A DNA stretch of 64,000 nt from Microbacterium sp. (GTDB lineage Bacteria > Actinomycetota > Actinomycetes > Actinomycetales > Microbacteriaceae), in NCBI RefSeq assembly GCF_044340635.1, contig NZ_JBIITF010000004.1:153731-217730 (forward strand), read 5' to 3'. Below, piece by piece: positions 49,309 through 54,566 of the stretch. The first letter of the stretch is position 1. Each line of letters starts with the position of its first letter. The translations under genes and the position numbers were made by a program. Under the pieces are notes generated by a model. That model made no database searches and was not told where the DNA came from. It saw nothing but the letters and a program-made list of their open reading frames with translations.

Positions 49309-49533
49309 TCAGTAGTGCGGGGGCACGTCCTGGCGTAGGCGGTCGTCGTTCGGTCCGGCGGTGCTCGCGTCAGGCGCGGGAGCGGGATCGGATGCCTCGT
49401 CCCGGGGGGCCGGCTCCGGTGTCGCTCCCGGTGCGGGCGTCAGCTTGGCTCGGCGCGCGCCGGGAACTCTCACCACGTGTTGGCGCGAGCCCGCCGGCGG
49501 GTCCGGCTCGCCGGAACCGTCAGCCGAGGCCAT
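49309..49533 (-). CDS. Small hypothetical protein
   Basis: 74 aa, VVRVPGARRAKLTPAPG...GPNDDRLRQDVPPHY; start overlaps the upstream helicase-like stop. Confidence 0.55.
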   Translation of the reverse strand: MASADGSGEPDPPAGSRQHVVRVPGARRAKLTPAPGATPEPAPRDEASDPAPAPDASTAGPNDDRLRQDVPPHY

Positions 49534-52500
49534 CGATCGGCTGGGTCGACGCCTCGACGGCGGGTGCGTCGGGCTCGACCCCCAGGATCGATGCGATGCG
49601 CGCGGCGACGGCCGGGGCATCCGTGTACAGGTCGAACGAATGCACACGCACGTAGTGCCATCCGAGCCGCCGGAGCAGCTGGGGACGCAGGCGCAGTGAT
49701 TCGCGTAGGGACTCGTCGTGCGTCTCGGGGTCGCTCTCGACGACGACGGCCTTGCCCGCGTGCTGCGCGACGAGGGGCAGAAGGCCGCGATAGTGCACGT
49801 CGACCGAGACGCCCAGGCGGCGAAGCTCGGACGCCAGGCGGCGCGTGAGCGGGTCGGCCAGGTCTTCGAGTCGGGCGTCGCGCTGGCGCGCTGCCATGCC
49901 GCCGAGGATCGTCATGAGGGTGGCGGCGCCGTACTCCAGGCGTCCGTCATCGAACGCGGAGGGACGGATGGATGACACGATCACCATCGAGCGGCGCGCC
50001 CGGGTCATGCCGACCGTCAGCAGGCGCTCACCGTCGGGGGTCGACAGGTCGCCGAAGTCGCTCAGCACACGGCCGTGCTTGGTCAGCCCGTAGCCGAGCG
50101 AGAAGATCACGCGGTCACGGCTCTCGGCGACCGACTGCTCGAGCGTGAGCACCGCGAACGGCTCGGCGGTGTCGCGCAGGGCGAACTCCGAAACATCCGA
50201 TCGGCTTGCGAAAGCCGCGTTGACGGCCGCACGCACGCGCTCCGCGTGCCGTGCGCTGGCGGTCACGACCATGAGCGACTCGTCCGGCCGGTTGAGCGCG
50301 TGCTCGAGCACGAGCGTCACGACCCGCGTCACCTCGGTGTCGGGGCTCTCGACGGCGCCGCTGATCGGGTCGGGCGCGCCGAAGCCGCCCTCGACGTAGT
50401 CCACGGTCAGGCTGCCGCGGCCGAGGTACGAACCGGCCCACGGCCACGACACGATCTCGCCACCGTAGAAGGCGTCGTTGACGAGCTCGGCGAGGTCTTC
50501 GCCACCGGCGCGGTAGCTGCGCGTGAGCGTATAGACGGGCAGCAGGTCCCCGAGCTTCTCGAACACCGAGACGTCGTCGAATGTGACGTCGGCTTCGGGC
50601 TGCGGAGCCGAGCCGGCCGCGAGCGTGAACGGCGAGGGACGCTGCGTCACGGGGTCGCCGAGCACGACGACCTGACGGGCACGGCGGATCGCGGGTGCGG
50701 CCTCGGCGAGGCAGATGGCCCCGGCGTCCGCGATGATCACGGTGTCGAACATGACCGAATCGGGGATCTTCGGCACCTCGTAGGGCGACGCCAGCCACAC
50801 AGGCGCGAGCGCGCGACCGAGCGTCGGGGCGCCGAGAGAGAGCGTTGCGGGCGTCGCGGTTCCGCGGGTCAGAAGCGCCTTGAGGTTCTCGGCCTCGCCC
50901 GGCTCATCGACGATGCCGATCTTCCATTCGCGGGCGAGCTGCCACGACAGGATCGATCCGGATGCCGCGGCGTGCGCCTCGTCGACCAGTCGGAAATCAC
51001 GTTCCAGGCGGTCGACGACGCTCGTGTTCGCGCCGAGCAGAGACTTGTCGGAGCGGAGCATGTGCTCGAGCGCGGACTGCCACCACGCGTATTCGAGCTC
51101 GGCCGCGACACGGTCGGCGGGAACGTGTCGCACCGACAGCTCGGCGAGCAGGCCGCCGAGTCCGAGACGGGCGAGCTCGGCGCGGAGGGCCGTTCGCTCG
51201 ATCAGGTTGTCGAGGACATCGGATTCTGCGGCCAGGCCGGCGAGCGTGCGCACCAGGGTGTTGATCGACAGCGAGGCGAGGCGCTTGTCGCGGTCGCGCC
51301 CGAGCGGGGCGTCGAGCTCCGCCAGCTCGGCCGTGACCCGCTGCCAAGCGACGTGCACATCGGCCAGGCCGAGGGGAACCTCGGGGGCCACACCGATGTC
51401 GACGAACTGCTGCCACTGCGTGCGCTGACGCTGGATGCGCACGAGAGCCTCGTGCATATCGGCGACGTGGACGCCCGGGCGCACGTACTCGCGCGCCAGG
51501 CGACGCAGGCGGCGCCGCTCCCCCGCCTTCATGCCCGCGGAGTCCCGACGCGAACCGAGTGCACGGATGAGGTCGGCGAGCGGACGTTCGAAGACGGTGG
51601 GGCTGAAGCGATCGAGCGAATCGCGGATGTCGATCAGCAGGCGCAGGTATTCGCCGAGTTCGTCGATCGAGGCGAAAGGACGCATGCGCGTCTGCGCGAT
51701 CAGCTCGAAGCCGCGCTCGAGCAGCCGGGGAACCTCGGTCGTGTGCAGCCTCTGCGCGAGGGCGTGCGCCGACTGCGCGGCATCCGTGCTCGCGAAGTTG
51801 ACGCCGTACCAGGGGGAATCGCCGGGACCGAAGCGGAATTCACCGAGCGTGGCGGCGAGCACGAGCATCCGCGCCGCTTCCGTGCGGTCGTTCGCCAGCT
51901 TCGTCAGCGTCGCGAAGTCGAACCGCGTGTCGACGGGGGCGATGCCGTCGGCTGCGGGCAGCGCGGCGAGAGCATGGAGCGTCTGCAAGGGACTGACGCC
52001 GAGACCCGGGACGGGCGTCGTCAGCGCCTTGCGGTACGACGTCAGCAGGGCGCGCAAACGCACCAGCGCGTCGTCGACGTCGCCGAGCTGGGGCGCGCTG
52101 GCCTTCTCGTTGCGGGCGATCGCGCGCACCAGGTCGCGGGCGGTGTTGGTCGGCGAGCAGGCGAGACCGGGCAGACCGACCTGGCCGAGTCGATGCCGCA
52201 CGCCCTCGATCGTCGAGCGGCGCGCGCTGACGACCAGCACGCGACGGTGCTCGTGGACGAGGGCGCCGATGGCGTTGATGACGGTCTGCGTTCCGCCCGT
52301 CCCGGGCAGCGTCGCTACGGCGATCGAGCGTCCCGCGGTGATCTGGGCGAGCACGCGCTCCTGCTCGGAGTCGGCGTCGAGCAGGAGCGTGTCGGCGGCG
52401 GGCGGACGGTCATCCGGCCCGACGGTCTGCACTTCGCCCGGCTGCGCGGCGAGCGTCTGCCGATCTGCCTGGTGCCCCGCGAGGGCGTTCAGCACGAGCC

Positions 52501-53260
52501 CGCCGGCTCGGGAGGAGTCGCGGGCCATGCCGCGCGCGACATCGGCGAACGTCGAGACGATCAGACGCGGATGCACAGTGAACGTGTCGATGTGGGAGGT
52601 GACGGACCGGAGCCTGTCGATGACGCGCTGGGGCTTGAAGACGCCGCCCTCGTGGGCGAGCGCGGCGAGCGCCGGACCGTCGAGGGCGATCCCGAAGTGC
52701 TCGCGTGAGACCGAGTCGAGCTCCGGATTGATGTGGAAGCCGCCGTGCAGCTTCAGTTCGAAATCGGCACCGTGACGACGGATGGCGAGGGGGCGGAGCA
52801 GAACGGGCGCACTGTAAGAAACGCCGCCGATGCGCCAACCGGCGAGCCCGACGGCGAGGTGGACGGCCTCGATCGAGCGGACCGTGCGCAACTCGACGTT
52901 CTTCGCCGTGATGGCCTCGGCGGCGAGGCGAGCCGTGCGCAGGGCGACCTCATCGCGGAAGAGCCCGGACAACAACGTCGACTGCCCCGTGATGAACTGC
53001 GGCAGGCTGCCGGGGTGCGCGTTGGTGATGTCGATTCCCGCGTCCGCGACATCGACGAATTGCAGCAACGGAGAGCGTCCACCGAGCTCGGATGCCTCGG
53101 CGCGCAACCGTGATCGGAGCACGTCCGCGACATGCGCGACCTGCACGTCGGGCTCGGCAACACTCAGACCATCGGGCGCGACGCTGCGGTTATCGGGCGC
53201 GCCAAGCGACGGGGACCCGTCTTCGCCCAGGTCCACGGCGTTGCCGTCTGCTCGCCACAC
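49520..53260 (-). CDS. DUF4011-type SF1 (DNA2/NAM7) helicase-like protein with C-terminal Vsr-like domain, catalytically degenerate
   Basis: DADSEQ Q-motif; TLPGTGGT (Walker A), IIADAGA (Walker B), LTRSYRA, TRARR; C-terminal RLRPQLLRRLGWHYVRV. Confidence 0.78.
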   Translation of the reverse strand: MWRADGNAVDLGEDGSPSLGAPDNRSVAPDGLSVAEPDVQVAHVADVLRSRLRAEASELGGRSPLLQFVDVADAGIDITNAHPGSLPQFITGQSTLLSGLFRDEVALRTARLAAEAITAKNVELRTVRSIEAVHLAVGLAGWRIGGVSYSAPVLLRPLAIRRHGADFELKLHGGFHINPELDSVSREHFGIALDGPALAALAHEGGVFKPQRVIDRLRSVTSHIDTFTVHPRLIVSTFADVARGMARDSSRAGGLVLNALAGHQADRQTLAAQPGEVQTVGPDDRPPAADTLLLDADSEQERVLAQITAGRSIAVATLPGTGGTQTVINAIGALVHEHRRVLVVSARRSTIEGVRHRLGQVGLPGLACSPTNTARDLVRAIARNEKASAPQLGDVDDALVRLRALLTSYRKALTTPVPGLGVSPLQTLHALAALPAADGIAPVDTRFDFATLTKLANDRTEAARMLVLAATLGEFRFGPGDSPWYGVNFASTDAAQSAHALAQRLHTTEVPRLLERGFELIAQTRMRPFASIDELGEYLRLLIDIRDSLDRFSPTVFERPLADLIRALGSRRDSAGMKAGERRRLRRLAREYVRPGVHVADMHEALVRIQRQRTQWQQFVDIGVAPEVPLGLADVHVAWQRVTAELAELDAPLGRDRDKRLASLSINTLVRTLAGLAAESDVLDNLIERTALRAELARLGLGGLLAELSVRHVPADRVAAELEYAWWQSALEHMLRSDKSLLGANTSVVDRLERDFRLVDEAHAAASGSILSWQLAREWKIGIVDEPGEAENLKALLTRGTATPATLSLGAPTLGRALAPVWLASPYEVPKIPDSVMFDTVIIADAGAICLAEAAPAIRRARQVVVLGDPVTQRPSPFTLAAGSAPQPEADVTFDDVSVFEKLGDLLPVYTLTRSYRAGGEDLAELVNDAFYGGEIVSWPWAGSYLGRGSLTVDYVEGGFGAPDPISGAVESPDTEVTRVVTLVLEHALNRPDESLMVVTASARHAERVRAAVNAAFASRSDVSEFALRDTAEPFAVLTLEQSVAESRDRVIFSLGYGLTKHGRVLSDFGDLSTPDGERLLTVGMTRARRSMVIVSSIRPSAFDDGRLEYGAATLMTILGGMAARQRDARLEDLADPLTRRLASELRRLGVSVDVHYRGLLPLVAQHAGKAVVVESDPETHDESLRESLRLRPQLLRRLGWHYVRVHSFDLYTDAPAVAARIASILGVEPDAPAVEASTQPIDGLG

Positions 53261-53430
53261 ACGGTCACCCTACGTGCGGACGGCGCGTCGACCGGTCAAG
53301 CGCGGCGGGTTTCGCGGGATTGCCGGGTTGGACAGGCCATCTCTCCTCCCCCGCCGGGGTCTTCAGGCATCCGTCCCCCGAACGCCCCACGTTCCCTCAG
53401 ATGTCGCGAGTCAGCGGCAGGATGGGCGTC

Positions 53431-53946
53431 ATGCCGCTCCGCTACACGACAACACCCACGCCGATCGGGATCGCGCTCGCCGTCGAGTCCGATGACGGGC
53501 TGGTTGCGCTCCGTTTCGCCGAGGCGTCTGCCGAGAGCCTGCTGGATCAGATCATGGCGGCGCGGCGGGAGCCCGCTGTGCGCGACGACGAGGCGCTCGA
53601 TCCCGTGGCGACGCAACTGGAGCAGTACTTCACGGGCGAGCGCCGGTCGTTCGACATCCCGCTGGATCTCGCGGGCCTGACCCCCTTCACCCGCGCCGCG
53701 CTCGGGGCGATCCGTGAGATCCCGTACGGCGAGACCGCGGGCTACGGGGAGGTCGCGATCACCGCCGGCATCCCGCGCGCAGCACGTGCGGTCGGCTCCG
53801 TGTGCGCCAACACGCCCATCTCGGTCGTGATCCCGGTGCACCGCGTCGTCCGGTCGGACGGATCGCTCGGCGAGTACGGCGGACGACCCGAGGTGAAGCG
53901 CGCGCTGCTCGCCCTCGAGTCGGGCATCGAGGGGGTCCTGCCGTGA
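53431..53946 (+). CDS. O6-alkylguanine alkyltransferase homologue lacking the acceptor Cys (ATL-like)
   Basis: QLEQYFTGERRSFDIPLD, IPYGET..YG, AARAVG, IPVHRV (canonical PCHRV). Confidence 0.85.
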   Translation: MPLRYTTTPTPIGIALAVESDDGLVALRFAEASAESLLDQIMAARREPAVRDDEALDPVATQLEQYFTGERRSFDIPLDLAGLTPFTRAALGAIREIPYGETAGYGEVAITAGIPRAARAVGSVCANTPISVVIPVHRVVRSDGSLGEYGGRPEVKRALLALESGIEGVLP

Positions 53947-54566
53947 CCGACGCAACCGCGACGCCCGCGTCCGATCTCGTGGTCGGCGAAGACGGCCTGG
54001 CTCGCCCTCGTTGGGCGGCGACCGATCCCCTGCTGCGGAGCTACTACGACGACGAGTGGGGTATGCCCGTCCGCGACGAACGCGGGCTGTTCGAGCGTCT
54101 GAGCCTCGAAGGGTTCCAGTCGGGATTGTCGTGGGCGATCATCCTGCGGAAGCGCCCGGGGTTTCGAGCGGCCTTCGCCGATTTCGACCCCGACACGGTG
54201 GCCGGATACGGCGACGAGGACGTGGAACGCCTGCTGCAGGATGCCGCGATCGTGCGCAATCGCGCCAAGATCCTCGCGACGATCACCAACGCCCGCGCCA
54301 CGGTCGCCCTCCGCTCGGACGGCGGTCTGGCCGACCTGGTGTGGTCGTACCGGCCCGAGACCACGCCCTCACCGCTGAGCTTCGCCGACATCCCCTCCAC
54401 CTCTGATGAATCGCGTGCACTCGCGAAGGCGCTGAAGGCACGCGGGTTCCGCTTCGTCGGGCCGACGACCGCGTTCGCCCTGATGGAAGCCGTGGGGATC
54501 GTTGACACGCACCTCATCGGCAGCCACCGGCGCGGGTCGAGCGGCGTCTGGCCCGCCTCGGCATAG
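53943..54566 (+). CDS. tag: DNA-3-methyladenine glycosylase I
   Basis: DEWGMP, LSLEGFQSGLSW, KRPGFR, IVRNRAKI, FRFVGPT; GTGA overlap with the preceding gene. Confidence 0.92.
   Translation: MTDATATPASDLVVGEDGLARPRWAATDPLLRSYYDDEWGMPVRDERGLFERLSLEGFQSGLSWAIILRKRPGFRAAFADFDPDTVAGYGDEDVERLLQDAAIVRNRAKILATITNARATVALRSDGGLADLVWSYRPETTPSPLSFADIPSTSDESRALAKALKARGFRFVGPTTAFALMEAVGIVDTHLIGSHRRGSSGVWPASA

What the first reader, a model, noticed from the sequence alone, without database searches (positions are those of the whole stretch)
53431..53946. Ogt homologue with PVHRV instead of PCHRV
Seen: codons ATC CCG GTG CAC CGC; TGC->GTG needs several changes, so a base-call error is unlikely. The N-terminal Ogt domain and the ARAVG helix are retained. 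Established: the Cys is the alkyl acceptor, and known ATL proteins usually carry Trp or Ala there and hand lesions to nucleotide excision repair. Inference: a Val-type, two-domain ATL acting as a damage sensor, translationally coupled to tag.
Basis: partly seen in the sequence, partly recalled or inferred. Interest (0 to 1): 0.62.

Follow-up and report, generated by a model that had tools for sequence, protein, structure and literature searches.

The report
Cysteine-less two-domain Ogt paralogue
This Microbacterium gene encodes a full-length copy of the suicide DNA-repair protein Ogt whose reactive cysteine is replaced by valine in nearly every genome of the genus examined, so it most likely binds alkylated DNA without repairing it, as an independently evolved counterpart of the known ATL damage sensors.

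Summary
Val136 (GTG 53836-53838) aligns with the acceptor Cys of M. tuberculosis OGT and E. coli Ada.

It is not a sequencing error or a recent loss. All 120 best database clusters, 47 species loci and 29 of 30 further sampled genomes of the genus carry Val or Ala. They form one clade (SH-aLRT 98) under purifying selection (C-domain dN/dS about 0.15).

Only three changes separate this clade from its nearest Cys-bearing sisters, and all lie in the active-site stretch: Asn-hinge to Thr/Ser, Pro to Ser, and Cys to Val/Ala. The Arg finger, Tyr, helix-turn-helix, His and Glu are invariant. Every Microbacterium genome checked also keeps a canonical PCHRV Ogt, usually beside adaA-alkA.

The coupling to tag is real (GTGA overlap) but inherited. 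Canonical ogt-tag pairs with the same 4-bp overlap occur in other Microbacteriaceae genera, and about 95% of Val/Ala-type loci examined have lost tag from this position. The constant neighbour is a divergent ATPase-dead helicase-like gene.

It fails ATL membership: it keeps the N-domain and is nested within the actinobacterial Ogts. It probably works like an ATL.

The scan found the same family before on another genome (e1-5196989). I class it as a new variant of a known kind.

The parts
53431..53946 (+). CDS of the Cys-less two-domain Ogt paralogue (171 aa, P0001). N-domain is residues 3-80 and C-domain is residues 85-164.
   Evidence: The AF2 model has pLDDT 94.5 and matches M. tuberculosis OGT over 162 residues with TM 0.82/0.85.
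53836..53838 (+). GTG codon for Val136, in the place of the alkyl-acceptor Cys (hAGT C145).
   Evidence: Alignments to 4bhb and 1sfe. The position is V39/A8 in the clade against C48/48 in the sister Ogts.
53812..53814 (+). ACG codon for Thr128, in the place of the Asn hinge (hAGT N137).
   Evidence: T40/S5/A2 in the Val clade against N48/48 in the Cys clade. The nearest Cys-bearing sisters L083 and L061 still have Asn.
53821..53823 (+). TCG codon for Ser131, in the place of the pocket Pro (hAGT P140).
   Evidence: S46/T1 against P48/48. Sisters L083 and L061 have Pro.
53803..53805 (+). TGC codon for Cys125, the only Cys in the protein. It is an ordinary non-acceptor residue of the recognition helix.
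   Evidence: Invariant in both the Val and Cys clades. It aligns with the Cys of SACAAN in Ada-C, and M. tuberculosis OGT has Asn at this position.
53779..53796 (+). AARAVG recognition helix, including the Arg finger R119 (53785-53787).
   Evidence: A117, R119, A120 and G122 are invariant in 47 Val-type and 48 Cys-type sequences.
53416..53424 (+). Shine-Dalgarno-like GCAGGATGG, 6-9 nt before the ATG at 53431.
   Evidence: It is a conserved block in the alignment of 45 intergenic regions.
53943..54566 (+). tag (DNA-3-methyladenine glycosylase I, PF03352). Its GTG start overlaps the Ogt-paralogue stop in GTGA.
   Evidence: The same 4-bp overlap occurs in canonical ogt-tag pairs of other genera.
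49520..53260 (-). Divergently transcribed helicase-like gene. It is the conserved neighbour of the Val-type gene across the genus.
Evidence: It is adjacent in 46 of 47 loci and in 29 of 29 further genomes. It is absent from 20 PCHRV loci of other genera.

Best explanation
The gene encodes a pseudo-enzyme: a full-length, well-folded Ogt that cannot accept an alkyl group. Three active-site residues have been replaced: the acceptor Cys (to Val or Ala), the Asn hinge (to Thr or Ser) and the pocket Pro (to Ser).

It arose once, in the ancestor of Microbacterium, from the Ogt of an ancestral, translationally coupled ogt-tag operon. The inducible Ogt of the adaA-alkA operon stayed on as the working transferase.

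Everything needed to bind the minor groove, flip a base and hold it in the pocket is kept under strong purifying selection. This includes the helix-turn-helix, the Arg finger R119, Y105, Y149, K156 and the H137/E163 pair. The protein therefore most likely binds O6-alkylguanine-type lesions stably without repairing them. It would act as a damage sensor or marker that passes the lesion to another pathway, with nucleotide excision repair the obvious candidate. It would thus work like an ATL protein while being an independent, two-domain derivative of Ogt.

Shown here: the conserved loss of the Cys, the single origin, purifying selection, the retained binding residues, the coexisting canonical Ogt, and the ancestral ogt-tag linkage.

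Inferred: lesion binding, absence of transfer, and the hand-off to NER.
For: - Motif: Val136 aligns with the acceptor Cys.
- Conservation: 120 of 120 best 90%-clusters have PV/AHR, as do 47 species loci and 29 of 30 further genomes of the genus.
- Single origin: the Val/Ala clade is monophyletic (SH-aLRT 98), with a long stem of 0.46-0.49.
- Selection: pairwise dN/dS is 0.08-0.39. The C-domain median is 0.15, against 0.21 in canonical Ogts.
- Invariant in both clades: Y105, R119, A117, A120, G122, P135, H137, R138, Y149 and K156. E163 is invariant in alignments A1-A3.
- Specific changes: only N128T/S, P131S and C136V/A separate the clade from its nearest Cys-bearing sisters L083 and L061.
- Fold: pLDDT 94.5, with TM 0.82-0.86 to M. 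tuberculosis OGT across both domains.
- Back-up enzyme: the own genome has a second, canonical PCHRV Ogt overlapping an AraC/AlkA fusion gene. Five of five Microbacterium genomes have one Val-type and one PCHRV gene.
- Orthology with a true Ogt: in 10 of 20 other Microbacteriaceae genomes the best homologue is PCHRV with tag immediately downstream. Eight of these have the same 4-bp overlap.
- Literature: Cys-to-Ala or Cys-to-Ser AGT mutants (SsOGT C119A, hAGT C145S) are inactive yet co-crystallise with O6-meG DNA (PMC4605297). ATLs likewise lack the Cys and the Asn hinge, and they mark lesions for NER (PMC10779285, section 3.5).
Against: - No biochemical data exist for any member.
- The ATL-specific features thought to give tight binding and strong DNA bending are absent. 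There is no C-terminal extension loop (the protein ends 8 residues after E163), no extended N-terminal helix, and no bulky Trp in the pocket.
- No gene linkage to uvrA, uvrB or uvrC was seen.
- No LexA or PafBC damage-response motif was found upstream.
- The invariant His137-Glu163 pair would not be needed by a pure binder, although ATLs also keep the HRV motif.
- The constant neighbour is a dead helicase-like gene, which could point to a different partner. That linkage is synteny within one genus only.
- Transcription could not be shown: only two short fragments were found in possible RNA runs.
Confidence: 0.6

Rival explanations
1. It is a general DNA-binding or partner protein and not a lesion sensor. 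It might be a non-consumable subunit that co-assembles with the real Ogt through the retained N-terminal domain to help lesion search. It might be a regulator. Or it might be a partner of the adjacent ATPase-dead helicase-like protein.
For: The N-terminal domain, which mediates cooperative clustering in AGTs (PMC10779285, sections 3.4 and 5.1), is kept, unlike in ATLs. The gene lies about 190 bp from the helicase-like gene, divergently, in 75 of 76 loci. That adjacency is not seen next to PCHRV orthologues of other genera.
Against: The adjacency is confined to one genus, where the whole neighbourhood (hel, actP, DUF485, regulator) is syntenic, so it carries little functional weight. The pocket and base-flipping residues (Y105, R119, Y149, H137) are invariant, which a generic DNA binder would not need. 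By column conservation, many N-domain positions that are fixed in canonical Ogts vary in this clade.
Confidence: 0.2
2. It still dealkylates DNA by a different chemistry. Either Cys125 acts as an alternative acceptor, or water or a hydroxyl (Thr128/Ser131) activated by the retained His137-Glu163 pair does the job, giving a turnover enzyme.
For: His137 and Glu163 are invariant. Two of the three clade-specific changes introduce hydroxyl side chains next to the pocket. Cys125 is invariant.
Against: Cys125 is equally invariant in 48 canonical Ogts. It aligns with a non-acceptor Cys of Ada and is absent from active M. tuberculosis OGT. Cys-to-Ala or Cys-to-Ser mutants of AGTs are inactive (PMC4605297). 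ATLs also keep HRV yet have no transferase, glycosylase or endonuclease activity (PMC10779285). Eight plus seven species have Ala at the site, and a few have Ala at position 128, so no single new nucleophile is universal.
Confidence: 0.07
3. It is a decaying relic of the constitutive Ogt, tolerated because the adaA-alkA-linked Ogt suffices.
For: The catalytic Cys is lost and a canonical Ogt is present in the same genome. One sampled genome (G303, L143) seems to carry a frameshifted copy.
Against: The reading frame is intact in 75 or more species. dN/dS is about 0.15 in the C-domain, tighter than in canonical Ogts. More than 20 residues are invariant, and the Shine-Dalgarno and start codon are conserved.
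Confidence: 0.03

Closest known systems
Canonical two-domain O6-alkylguanine-DNA alkyltransferases: M. tuberculosis OGT (Rv1316c, PDB 4BHB/4WX9), E. coli Ada-C (1SFE), and the PCHRV Ogt of the ogt-tag operon in other Microbacteriaceae genera (e.g. L086, L089; nearest sister L083 at 53% identity)
   Same: The fold is the same over both domains (TM 0.82-0.86, 38-39% identity to M. tuberculosis OGT). The helix-turn-helix, Arg finger, Tyr, His and Glu are the same. The gene sits in the same position, upstream of tag with a 4-bp overlap. It is nested within this family in the tree.
   Different: The acceptor Cys is replaced by Val or Ala, the Asn hinge by Thr or Ser, and the pocket Pro by Ser. It therefore cannot be EC 2.1.1.63 as it is annotated.
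Alkyltransferase-like (ATL) proteins: S. pombe Atl1 (3GVA/3GX4), E. coli Atl/YbaZ, V. parahaemolyticus vpAtl (2KIF), T. thermophilus TTHA1564
   Same: It is a Cys-less member of the PF01035 superfamily that keeps the helix-turn-helix, Arg finger and Tyr. The Asn hinge is also lost. It can coexist with real AGTs. The presumed role is a non-repairing lesion binder (PMC10779285).
   Different: ATLs are single-domain proteins of about 110-130 aa, usually with Trp in place of Cys, a C-terminal extension loop and an extended N-terminal helix. This protein keeps the N-terminal domain, has Val or Ala, and has no C-terminal extension. It matches ATL structures over only 80 residues (TM 0.41) and has a separate evolutionary origin inside the actinobacterial Ogts.
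Engineered inactive AGTs used to trap lesion complexes: hAGT C145S (1T38) and S. solfataricus OGT C119A (4ZYD)
   Same: These are two-domain scaffolds with a small non-nucleophilic residue at the Cys position. They bind and flip O6-methylguanine without repair (PMC4605297). The natural PAHRV members are the same substitution.
   Different: Those are laboratory point mutants. Here the change is natural, ancient, accompanied by two further pocket changes, and maintained by selection.

Membership tests
O6-alkylguanine-DNA alkyltransferase (Ogt/AGT, EC 2.1.1.63) | Two-domain fold: an N-terminal RNase-like domain plus a C-terminal helix-turn-helix domain | tested here: met
   PF02870 and PF01035 both score above their cut-offs. 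The AF2 model has pLDDT 94.5 and aligns to 4bhb over 162 residues at TM 0.82/0.85.
O6-alkylguanine-DNA alkyltransferase (Ogt/AGT, EC 2.1.1.63) | Acceptor cysteine in the PCHR(V/I) motif | tested here: not met
   Val136 occupies the aligned column. The clade has V39/A8 against C48/48 in the sister Ogts.
O6-alkylguanine-DNA alkyltransferase (Ogt/AGT, EC 2.1.1.63) | Asn hinge linking the recognition helix to the active site (hAGT N137) | tested here: not met
   Thr128 in this protein. The clade has T40/S5/A2 against N48/48.
O6-alkylguanine-DNA alkyltransferase (Ogt/AGT, EC 2.1.1.63) | Base-flipping and DNA-binding residues (Arg finger, Tyr114 equivalent, HTH) and the His/Glu of the activation network | tested here: met
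   Y105, R119, A117, A120, G122, H137, R138, Y149 and K156 are invariant or nearly so. E163 is invariant in alignments A1-A3.
O6-alkylguanine-DNA alkyltransferase (Ogt/AGT, EC 2.1.1.63) | Stoichiometric alkyl transfer from DNA to the protein | not testable with these tools
   This needs a biochemical assay. It is predicted to be absent, by analogy with inactive Cys-to-Ala/Ser mutants (PMC4605297).
Alkyltransferase-like (ATL) proteins | Active-site Cys replaced by a non-nucleophilic residue | tested here: met
   Val or Ala at the site. The residue differs from the usual Trp (PMC10779285).
Alkyltransferase-like (ATL) proteins | No N-terminal AGT domain (single-domain protein) | tested here: not met
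   PF02870 matches residues 3-80. The N-domain is folded in the model.
Alkyltransferase-like (ATL) proteins | Asn hinge missing | tested here: met
   N to T/S/A at position 128. It is a point substitution in a loop of the same length, not the remodelled capping loop described for ATLs (PMC10779285).
Alkyltransferase-like (ATL) proteins | C-terminal extension loop and extended N-terminal helix that press on and bend the DNA | tested here: not met
   The sequence ends 8 residues after E163. The last helix is 153-164, followed by a low-confidence tail. Most clade members end even sooner.
Alkyltransferase-like (ATL) proteins | Common descent with ATLs | tested here: not met
   The clade is nested among the actinobacterial PCHRV Ogts, with Cys-bearing sisters L083 and L061. 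ATL structures match only the C-domain (80 residues, E 1e-4). No ATL sequences were included in the tree itself.
Alkyltransferase-like (ATL) proteins | High-affinity binding of O6-alkylguanine and hand-off to NER (UvrA/UvrC interaction) | not testable with these tools
   This needs binding assays, genetics and pull-downs.

The most novel reading that the evidence does not exclude
The triple replacement (Cys to Val/Ala, Asn to Thr/Ser, Pro to Ser), with the His-Glu pair strictly retained, may have created more than a passive ATL mimic. One option is a reader of a different, more polar class of O6 or O4 adducts. Another is a non-suicidal, water-using dealkylase. A third is the lesion-recognition module of a new repair or tolerance pathway built with the adjacent ATPase-dead helicase/nuclease-like protein.
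Probability: 0.1. Interest if true: 0.85.

Novelty: new variant of a known kind. Interest (0 to 1): 0.5.

Why it matters
ATL proteins showed that a dead alkyltransferase can bridge base damage to excision repair. All described ATLs are single-domain and mostly Trp-type.

This clade is a second, independent and datable origin of a Cys-less family member, on the complete two-domain Ogt scaffold. Only three active-site changes separate it from its Cys-bearing sisters, and functional orthologues survive in sister genera. That makes it a natural experiment on three questions:
- What minimal changes turn a suicide enzyme into a binder?
- Is the N-terminal domain compatible with sensor function?
- Is NER hand-off a general fate of such proteins?

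There is also a practical point. Every member with a source name is annotated as methylated-DNA--[protein]-cysteine S-methyltransferase, which is almost certainly wrong.

Tried and rejected
- Recent loss-of-function or sequencing error: rejected by conservation across more than 75 genomes.
- Cys125 as alternative acceptor: rejected as unlikely, because the residue is shared with canonical Ogts and with Ada.
- tag coupling as a special feature of the Val type: rejected. It is ancestral and mostly lost.
- Co-evolution with the Zn-less Tag: rejected. The P-Y-H-S state is found in all 17 Tags read at all four positions, including those beside canonical Ogts.
- Damage-inducible promoter: no LexA box (3 or fewer mismatches) and no PafBC/RecA-NDp motif in 46 intergenic regions.
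- "V-specific" conserved residues E101, E107, E148, G150 and P153 as a new functional surface: withdrawn, because the Cys-bearing sisters L083 and L061 already have most of them.
- Relaxed selection on the N-domain: only partly upheld. Many columns fixed in canonical Ogts vary in the clade, but pairwise dN/dS of the N-domain is similar in both groups, 0.33 against 0.29.
- Transcription and co-transcription from public runs: inconclusive. There were two short exact fragments in possible RNA runs, and one contig of a related strain that is probably DNA.
- Literature: no paper in the held library contains PVHRV, and nothing was found on a two-domain Cys-less Ogt. One search was badly designed and uninformative. 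Two primary ATL papers (PMC2729916, PMC3398191) are not held.
- First neighbour clustering by GC3-filtered ORFs: confounded by shadow ORFs and replaced by tblastn mapping.

Full report
**Observation**

window:53431-53946(+) is an open frame of 171 aa (P0001). Pfam finds both Ogt domains: PF02870 at residues 3-80 and PF01035 at residues 85-164. NCBIfam gives only generic Ogt/Ada hits, all below the equivalog cut-offs.

Against PDB sequences the best matches are M. tuberculosis OGT (E 3e-25) and E. coli Ada-C. The motif IPVHRV aligns column for column with their PCHRV, so Val136 (GTG, 53836-53838) sits where the alkyl-acceptor Cys should be.

The stop codon overlaps the GTG start of tag (PF03352, E 1e-63) in GTGA. 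A conserved AGGATGG followed by the ATG supports 53431 as the start. The in-frame ATG at 53422 is out of frame in most relatives, and in a related strain seen in a public run.

**Not an error and not a recent loss**

The organism is a Microbacterium; the nearest named protein, at 92% identity, is from Microbacterium sp. C448. The assembly probably derives from a lake-water metagenome.
- All 120 best 90%-identity clusters, down to 52% identity, carry PVHRV (112), PAHRV (8) or PVHRI (1).
- In a library of 50%-identity representatives, only about 12 of the top 150 clusters are Val-type. The rest are PCHRV.
- A scan of one genome per species returned 47 Val/Ala-type loci. Nearly all are named Microbacterium.
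- In an even sample of 30 further genomes of the genus, 29 have the gene: 22 with Val and 7 with Ala. The exception is 80% complete. One copy (G303) looks frameshifted.

**Origin**

The Val/Ala sequences form one clade (SH-aLRT 98) on a long stem. The window's protein is on an early branch. Ala forms a subclade within the Val sequences.

The nearest Cys-bearing sequences are L083, from another genus of the same family (53% identity, PCHRV), and L061. Beyond them lies a broad actinobacterial PCHRV clade.

In 20 genomes of other Microbacteriaceae genera the best homologue is always PCHRV. In 10 of them tag follows directly, and 8 of those have the same 4-bp GTGA/ATGA overlap as here.

So the window's gene is the positional orthologue of a real Ogt in an ancestral, translationally coupled ogt-tag operon. 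Among Val/Ala-type loci, tag remains downstream only in the window, L004, L013 and L036. The other Microbacterium genomes checked carry a single tag elsewhere.

**What changed and what did not**

I compared 47 Val/Ala-type with 48 Cys-type sequences. Five columns are fixed differently: D9P, V90A, N128T/S/A, P131S and C136V/A.

The Cys-bearing sisters L083 and L061 already share P9 or A90. They also share the residues that at first looked clade-specific (P98, E107, E148, G150, P153). Only the three active-site changes therefore define the clade. In human AGT numbering (from established knowledge) these are N137 (the Asn hinge), P140 (alkyl pocket) and C145.

Invariant in both groups are Y105 (hAGT Y114), the AARAVG helix with Arg finger R119 (R128), C125, P135, H137, R138, Y149 (Y158) and K156. 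E163 (E172) is invariant in alignments A1-A3.

C125, the only Cys, is also invariant in canonical Ogts. It aligns with the Cys of SACAAN in Ada, and M. tuberculosis OGT lacks it. It is therefore an ordinary helix residue and not a likely substitute acceptor.

Pairwise dN/dS within the clade is 0.08-0.39. By domain the medians are as follows:

| Group | N-domain | C-domain |
|---|---|---|
| Val/Ala clade | 0.33 | 0.15 |
| Canonical relatives | 0.29 | 0.21 |

The AlphaFold model is confident (pLDDT 94.5, pTM 0.88). It superposes on M. tuberculosis OGT over both domains (TM 0.82-0.86, rmsd 2.2 Å). ATL structures match only 80 residues.

**Genomic setting**

The own genome has exactly two PF01035 genes. 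The second, on contig 20, is a 169-aa canonical Ogt (VPCHRVL). It overlaps by 4 bp the end of a 398-aa AraC/AlkA fusion gene, the M. tuberculosis-like adaA-alkA/ogt arrangement. Five of five Microbacterium genomes have one Val-type and one PCHRV gene. No classical ATL is present.

The constant neighbour of the Val-type gene is a divergently transcribed helicase-like gene at 49520-53260(-), about 190 bp away. It is adjacent in 46 of 47 and in 29 of 29 loci. It is not seen beside the PCHRV orthologues of other genera.

Because the whole neighbourhood is syntenic within the genus, this adjacency is only a lead. No LexA or PafBC motif lies upstream.

**Mechanism**

Established knowledge is as follows.
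- AGTs flip the lesion into a pocket and transfer the alkyl group to the Cys thiolate.
- Cys-to-Ala or Cys-to-Ser mutants are inactive but still form flipped complexes with O6-meG DNA (PMC4605297).
- ATLs lack the Cys and the Asn hinge, bind lesions tightly and recruit NER (PMC10779285, section 3.5).

My inference is that this protein binds O6-alkylguanine-type damage without repairing it, and that it marks or shields the lesion for another pathway. NER is the leading candidate.

I put about 0.8 on "no alkyl transfer, function retained", about 0.6 on lesion-specific sensing, and about 0.3 on NER specifically. The rivals are a generic or partner-dependent DNA binder (0.2), altered chemistry (0.07) and a decaying relic (0.03).

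**Comparison and novelty**

It works like an ATL but fails ATL membership. The N-domain is present, there is no C-terminal extension, and its descent is separate. It also fails Ogt membership on the Cys and the Asn hinge.

I found no description in the held literature. The 2023 family review defines ATLs as lacking the N-domain. All source names seen call these proteins cysteine methyltransferases.

The scan had already flagged the same family on another Microbacterium genome, with the same conclusion (e1-5196989).
- the ancestral ogt-tag operon;
- the exact three-residue signature relative to Cys-bearing sisters;
- the helicase-like neighbour;
- the loss of tag linkage in most of the clade.

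Verdict: a new variant of a known kind, of moderate interest.

Noticed in passing
window:53943-54566 (+): The Tag glycosylase lacks three of the four Zn ligands of E. coli Tag (C4 to P22, H17 to Y35, C179 to S194; H175 kept as H190), while the pocket residues are kept. The same P-Y-H-S state is found in all 17 Tags that could be read at all four positions, including those coupled to canonical PCHRV Ogts. It is therefore lineage-wide and not linked to the Val-type Ogt.
   Followed up: yes
window:53296-53356 (-): Between the helicase-like gene and the Ogt paralogue lies a strong SD (GGGGGAGGAG) followed by a 14-codon ORF (MACPTRQSRETRRA). The SD block and the block encoding ..RETR.. are conserved in 45 Microbacterium intergenic regions. 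In some species (e.g. L031) the frame seems to run on into the helicase-like gene.
   Followed up: partly
window:53261-53275 (-): A conserved TAGGGT-type -10 box lies 7-8 nt upstream of the GTG start of the helicase-like gene, which suggests a leaderless transcript.
   Followed up: no
G000 contig 20 (L002:1489-3191, minus strand): The canonical Ogt (169 aa, VPCHRVL) overlaps by 4 bp the end of a 398-aa AraC-type/AlkA fusion gene. This is the mycobacterial-type adaA-alkA/ogt operon, and it is conserved in 4 of 5 Microbacterium genomes.
   Followed up: partly
P0237; L111:4001-4600: A 199-aa Ogt homologue from unidentified metagenome contigs has LPVHRVT, with Ile in place of the hinge Asn but the pocket Pro kept. 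Its gene neighbourhood is unrelated. It is probably an independent Cys-to-Val lineage.
   Followed up: partly
L143 (G303:C3:1190239-1193454): One Microbacterium genome has the Val-type gene split into two frames (residues 94-165 at 65% identity; the N-terminal part in another frame). This could be a frameshifted pseudogene or an assembly error.
   Followed up: no
L055, L056, L059, L063, L065, L069, L071, L076, L081, L082: Many other actinobacteria carry two PCHRV Ogt genes about 0.7 kb apart on the same strand, belonging to two distinct clades. In Arthrobacter and Leifsonia, tag follows about 0.5-0.7 kb further on.
   Followed up: no
L057:3001-3477; L063:1846-2319: Two otherwise canonical Ogt homologues have the Pro of PCHRV replaced (IGCHRV and IACHRV).
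   Followed up: no
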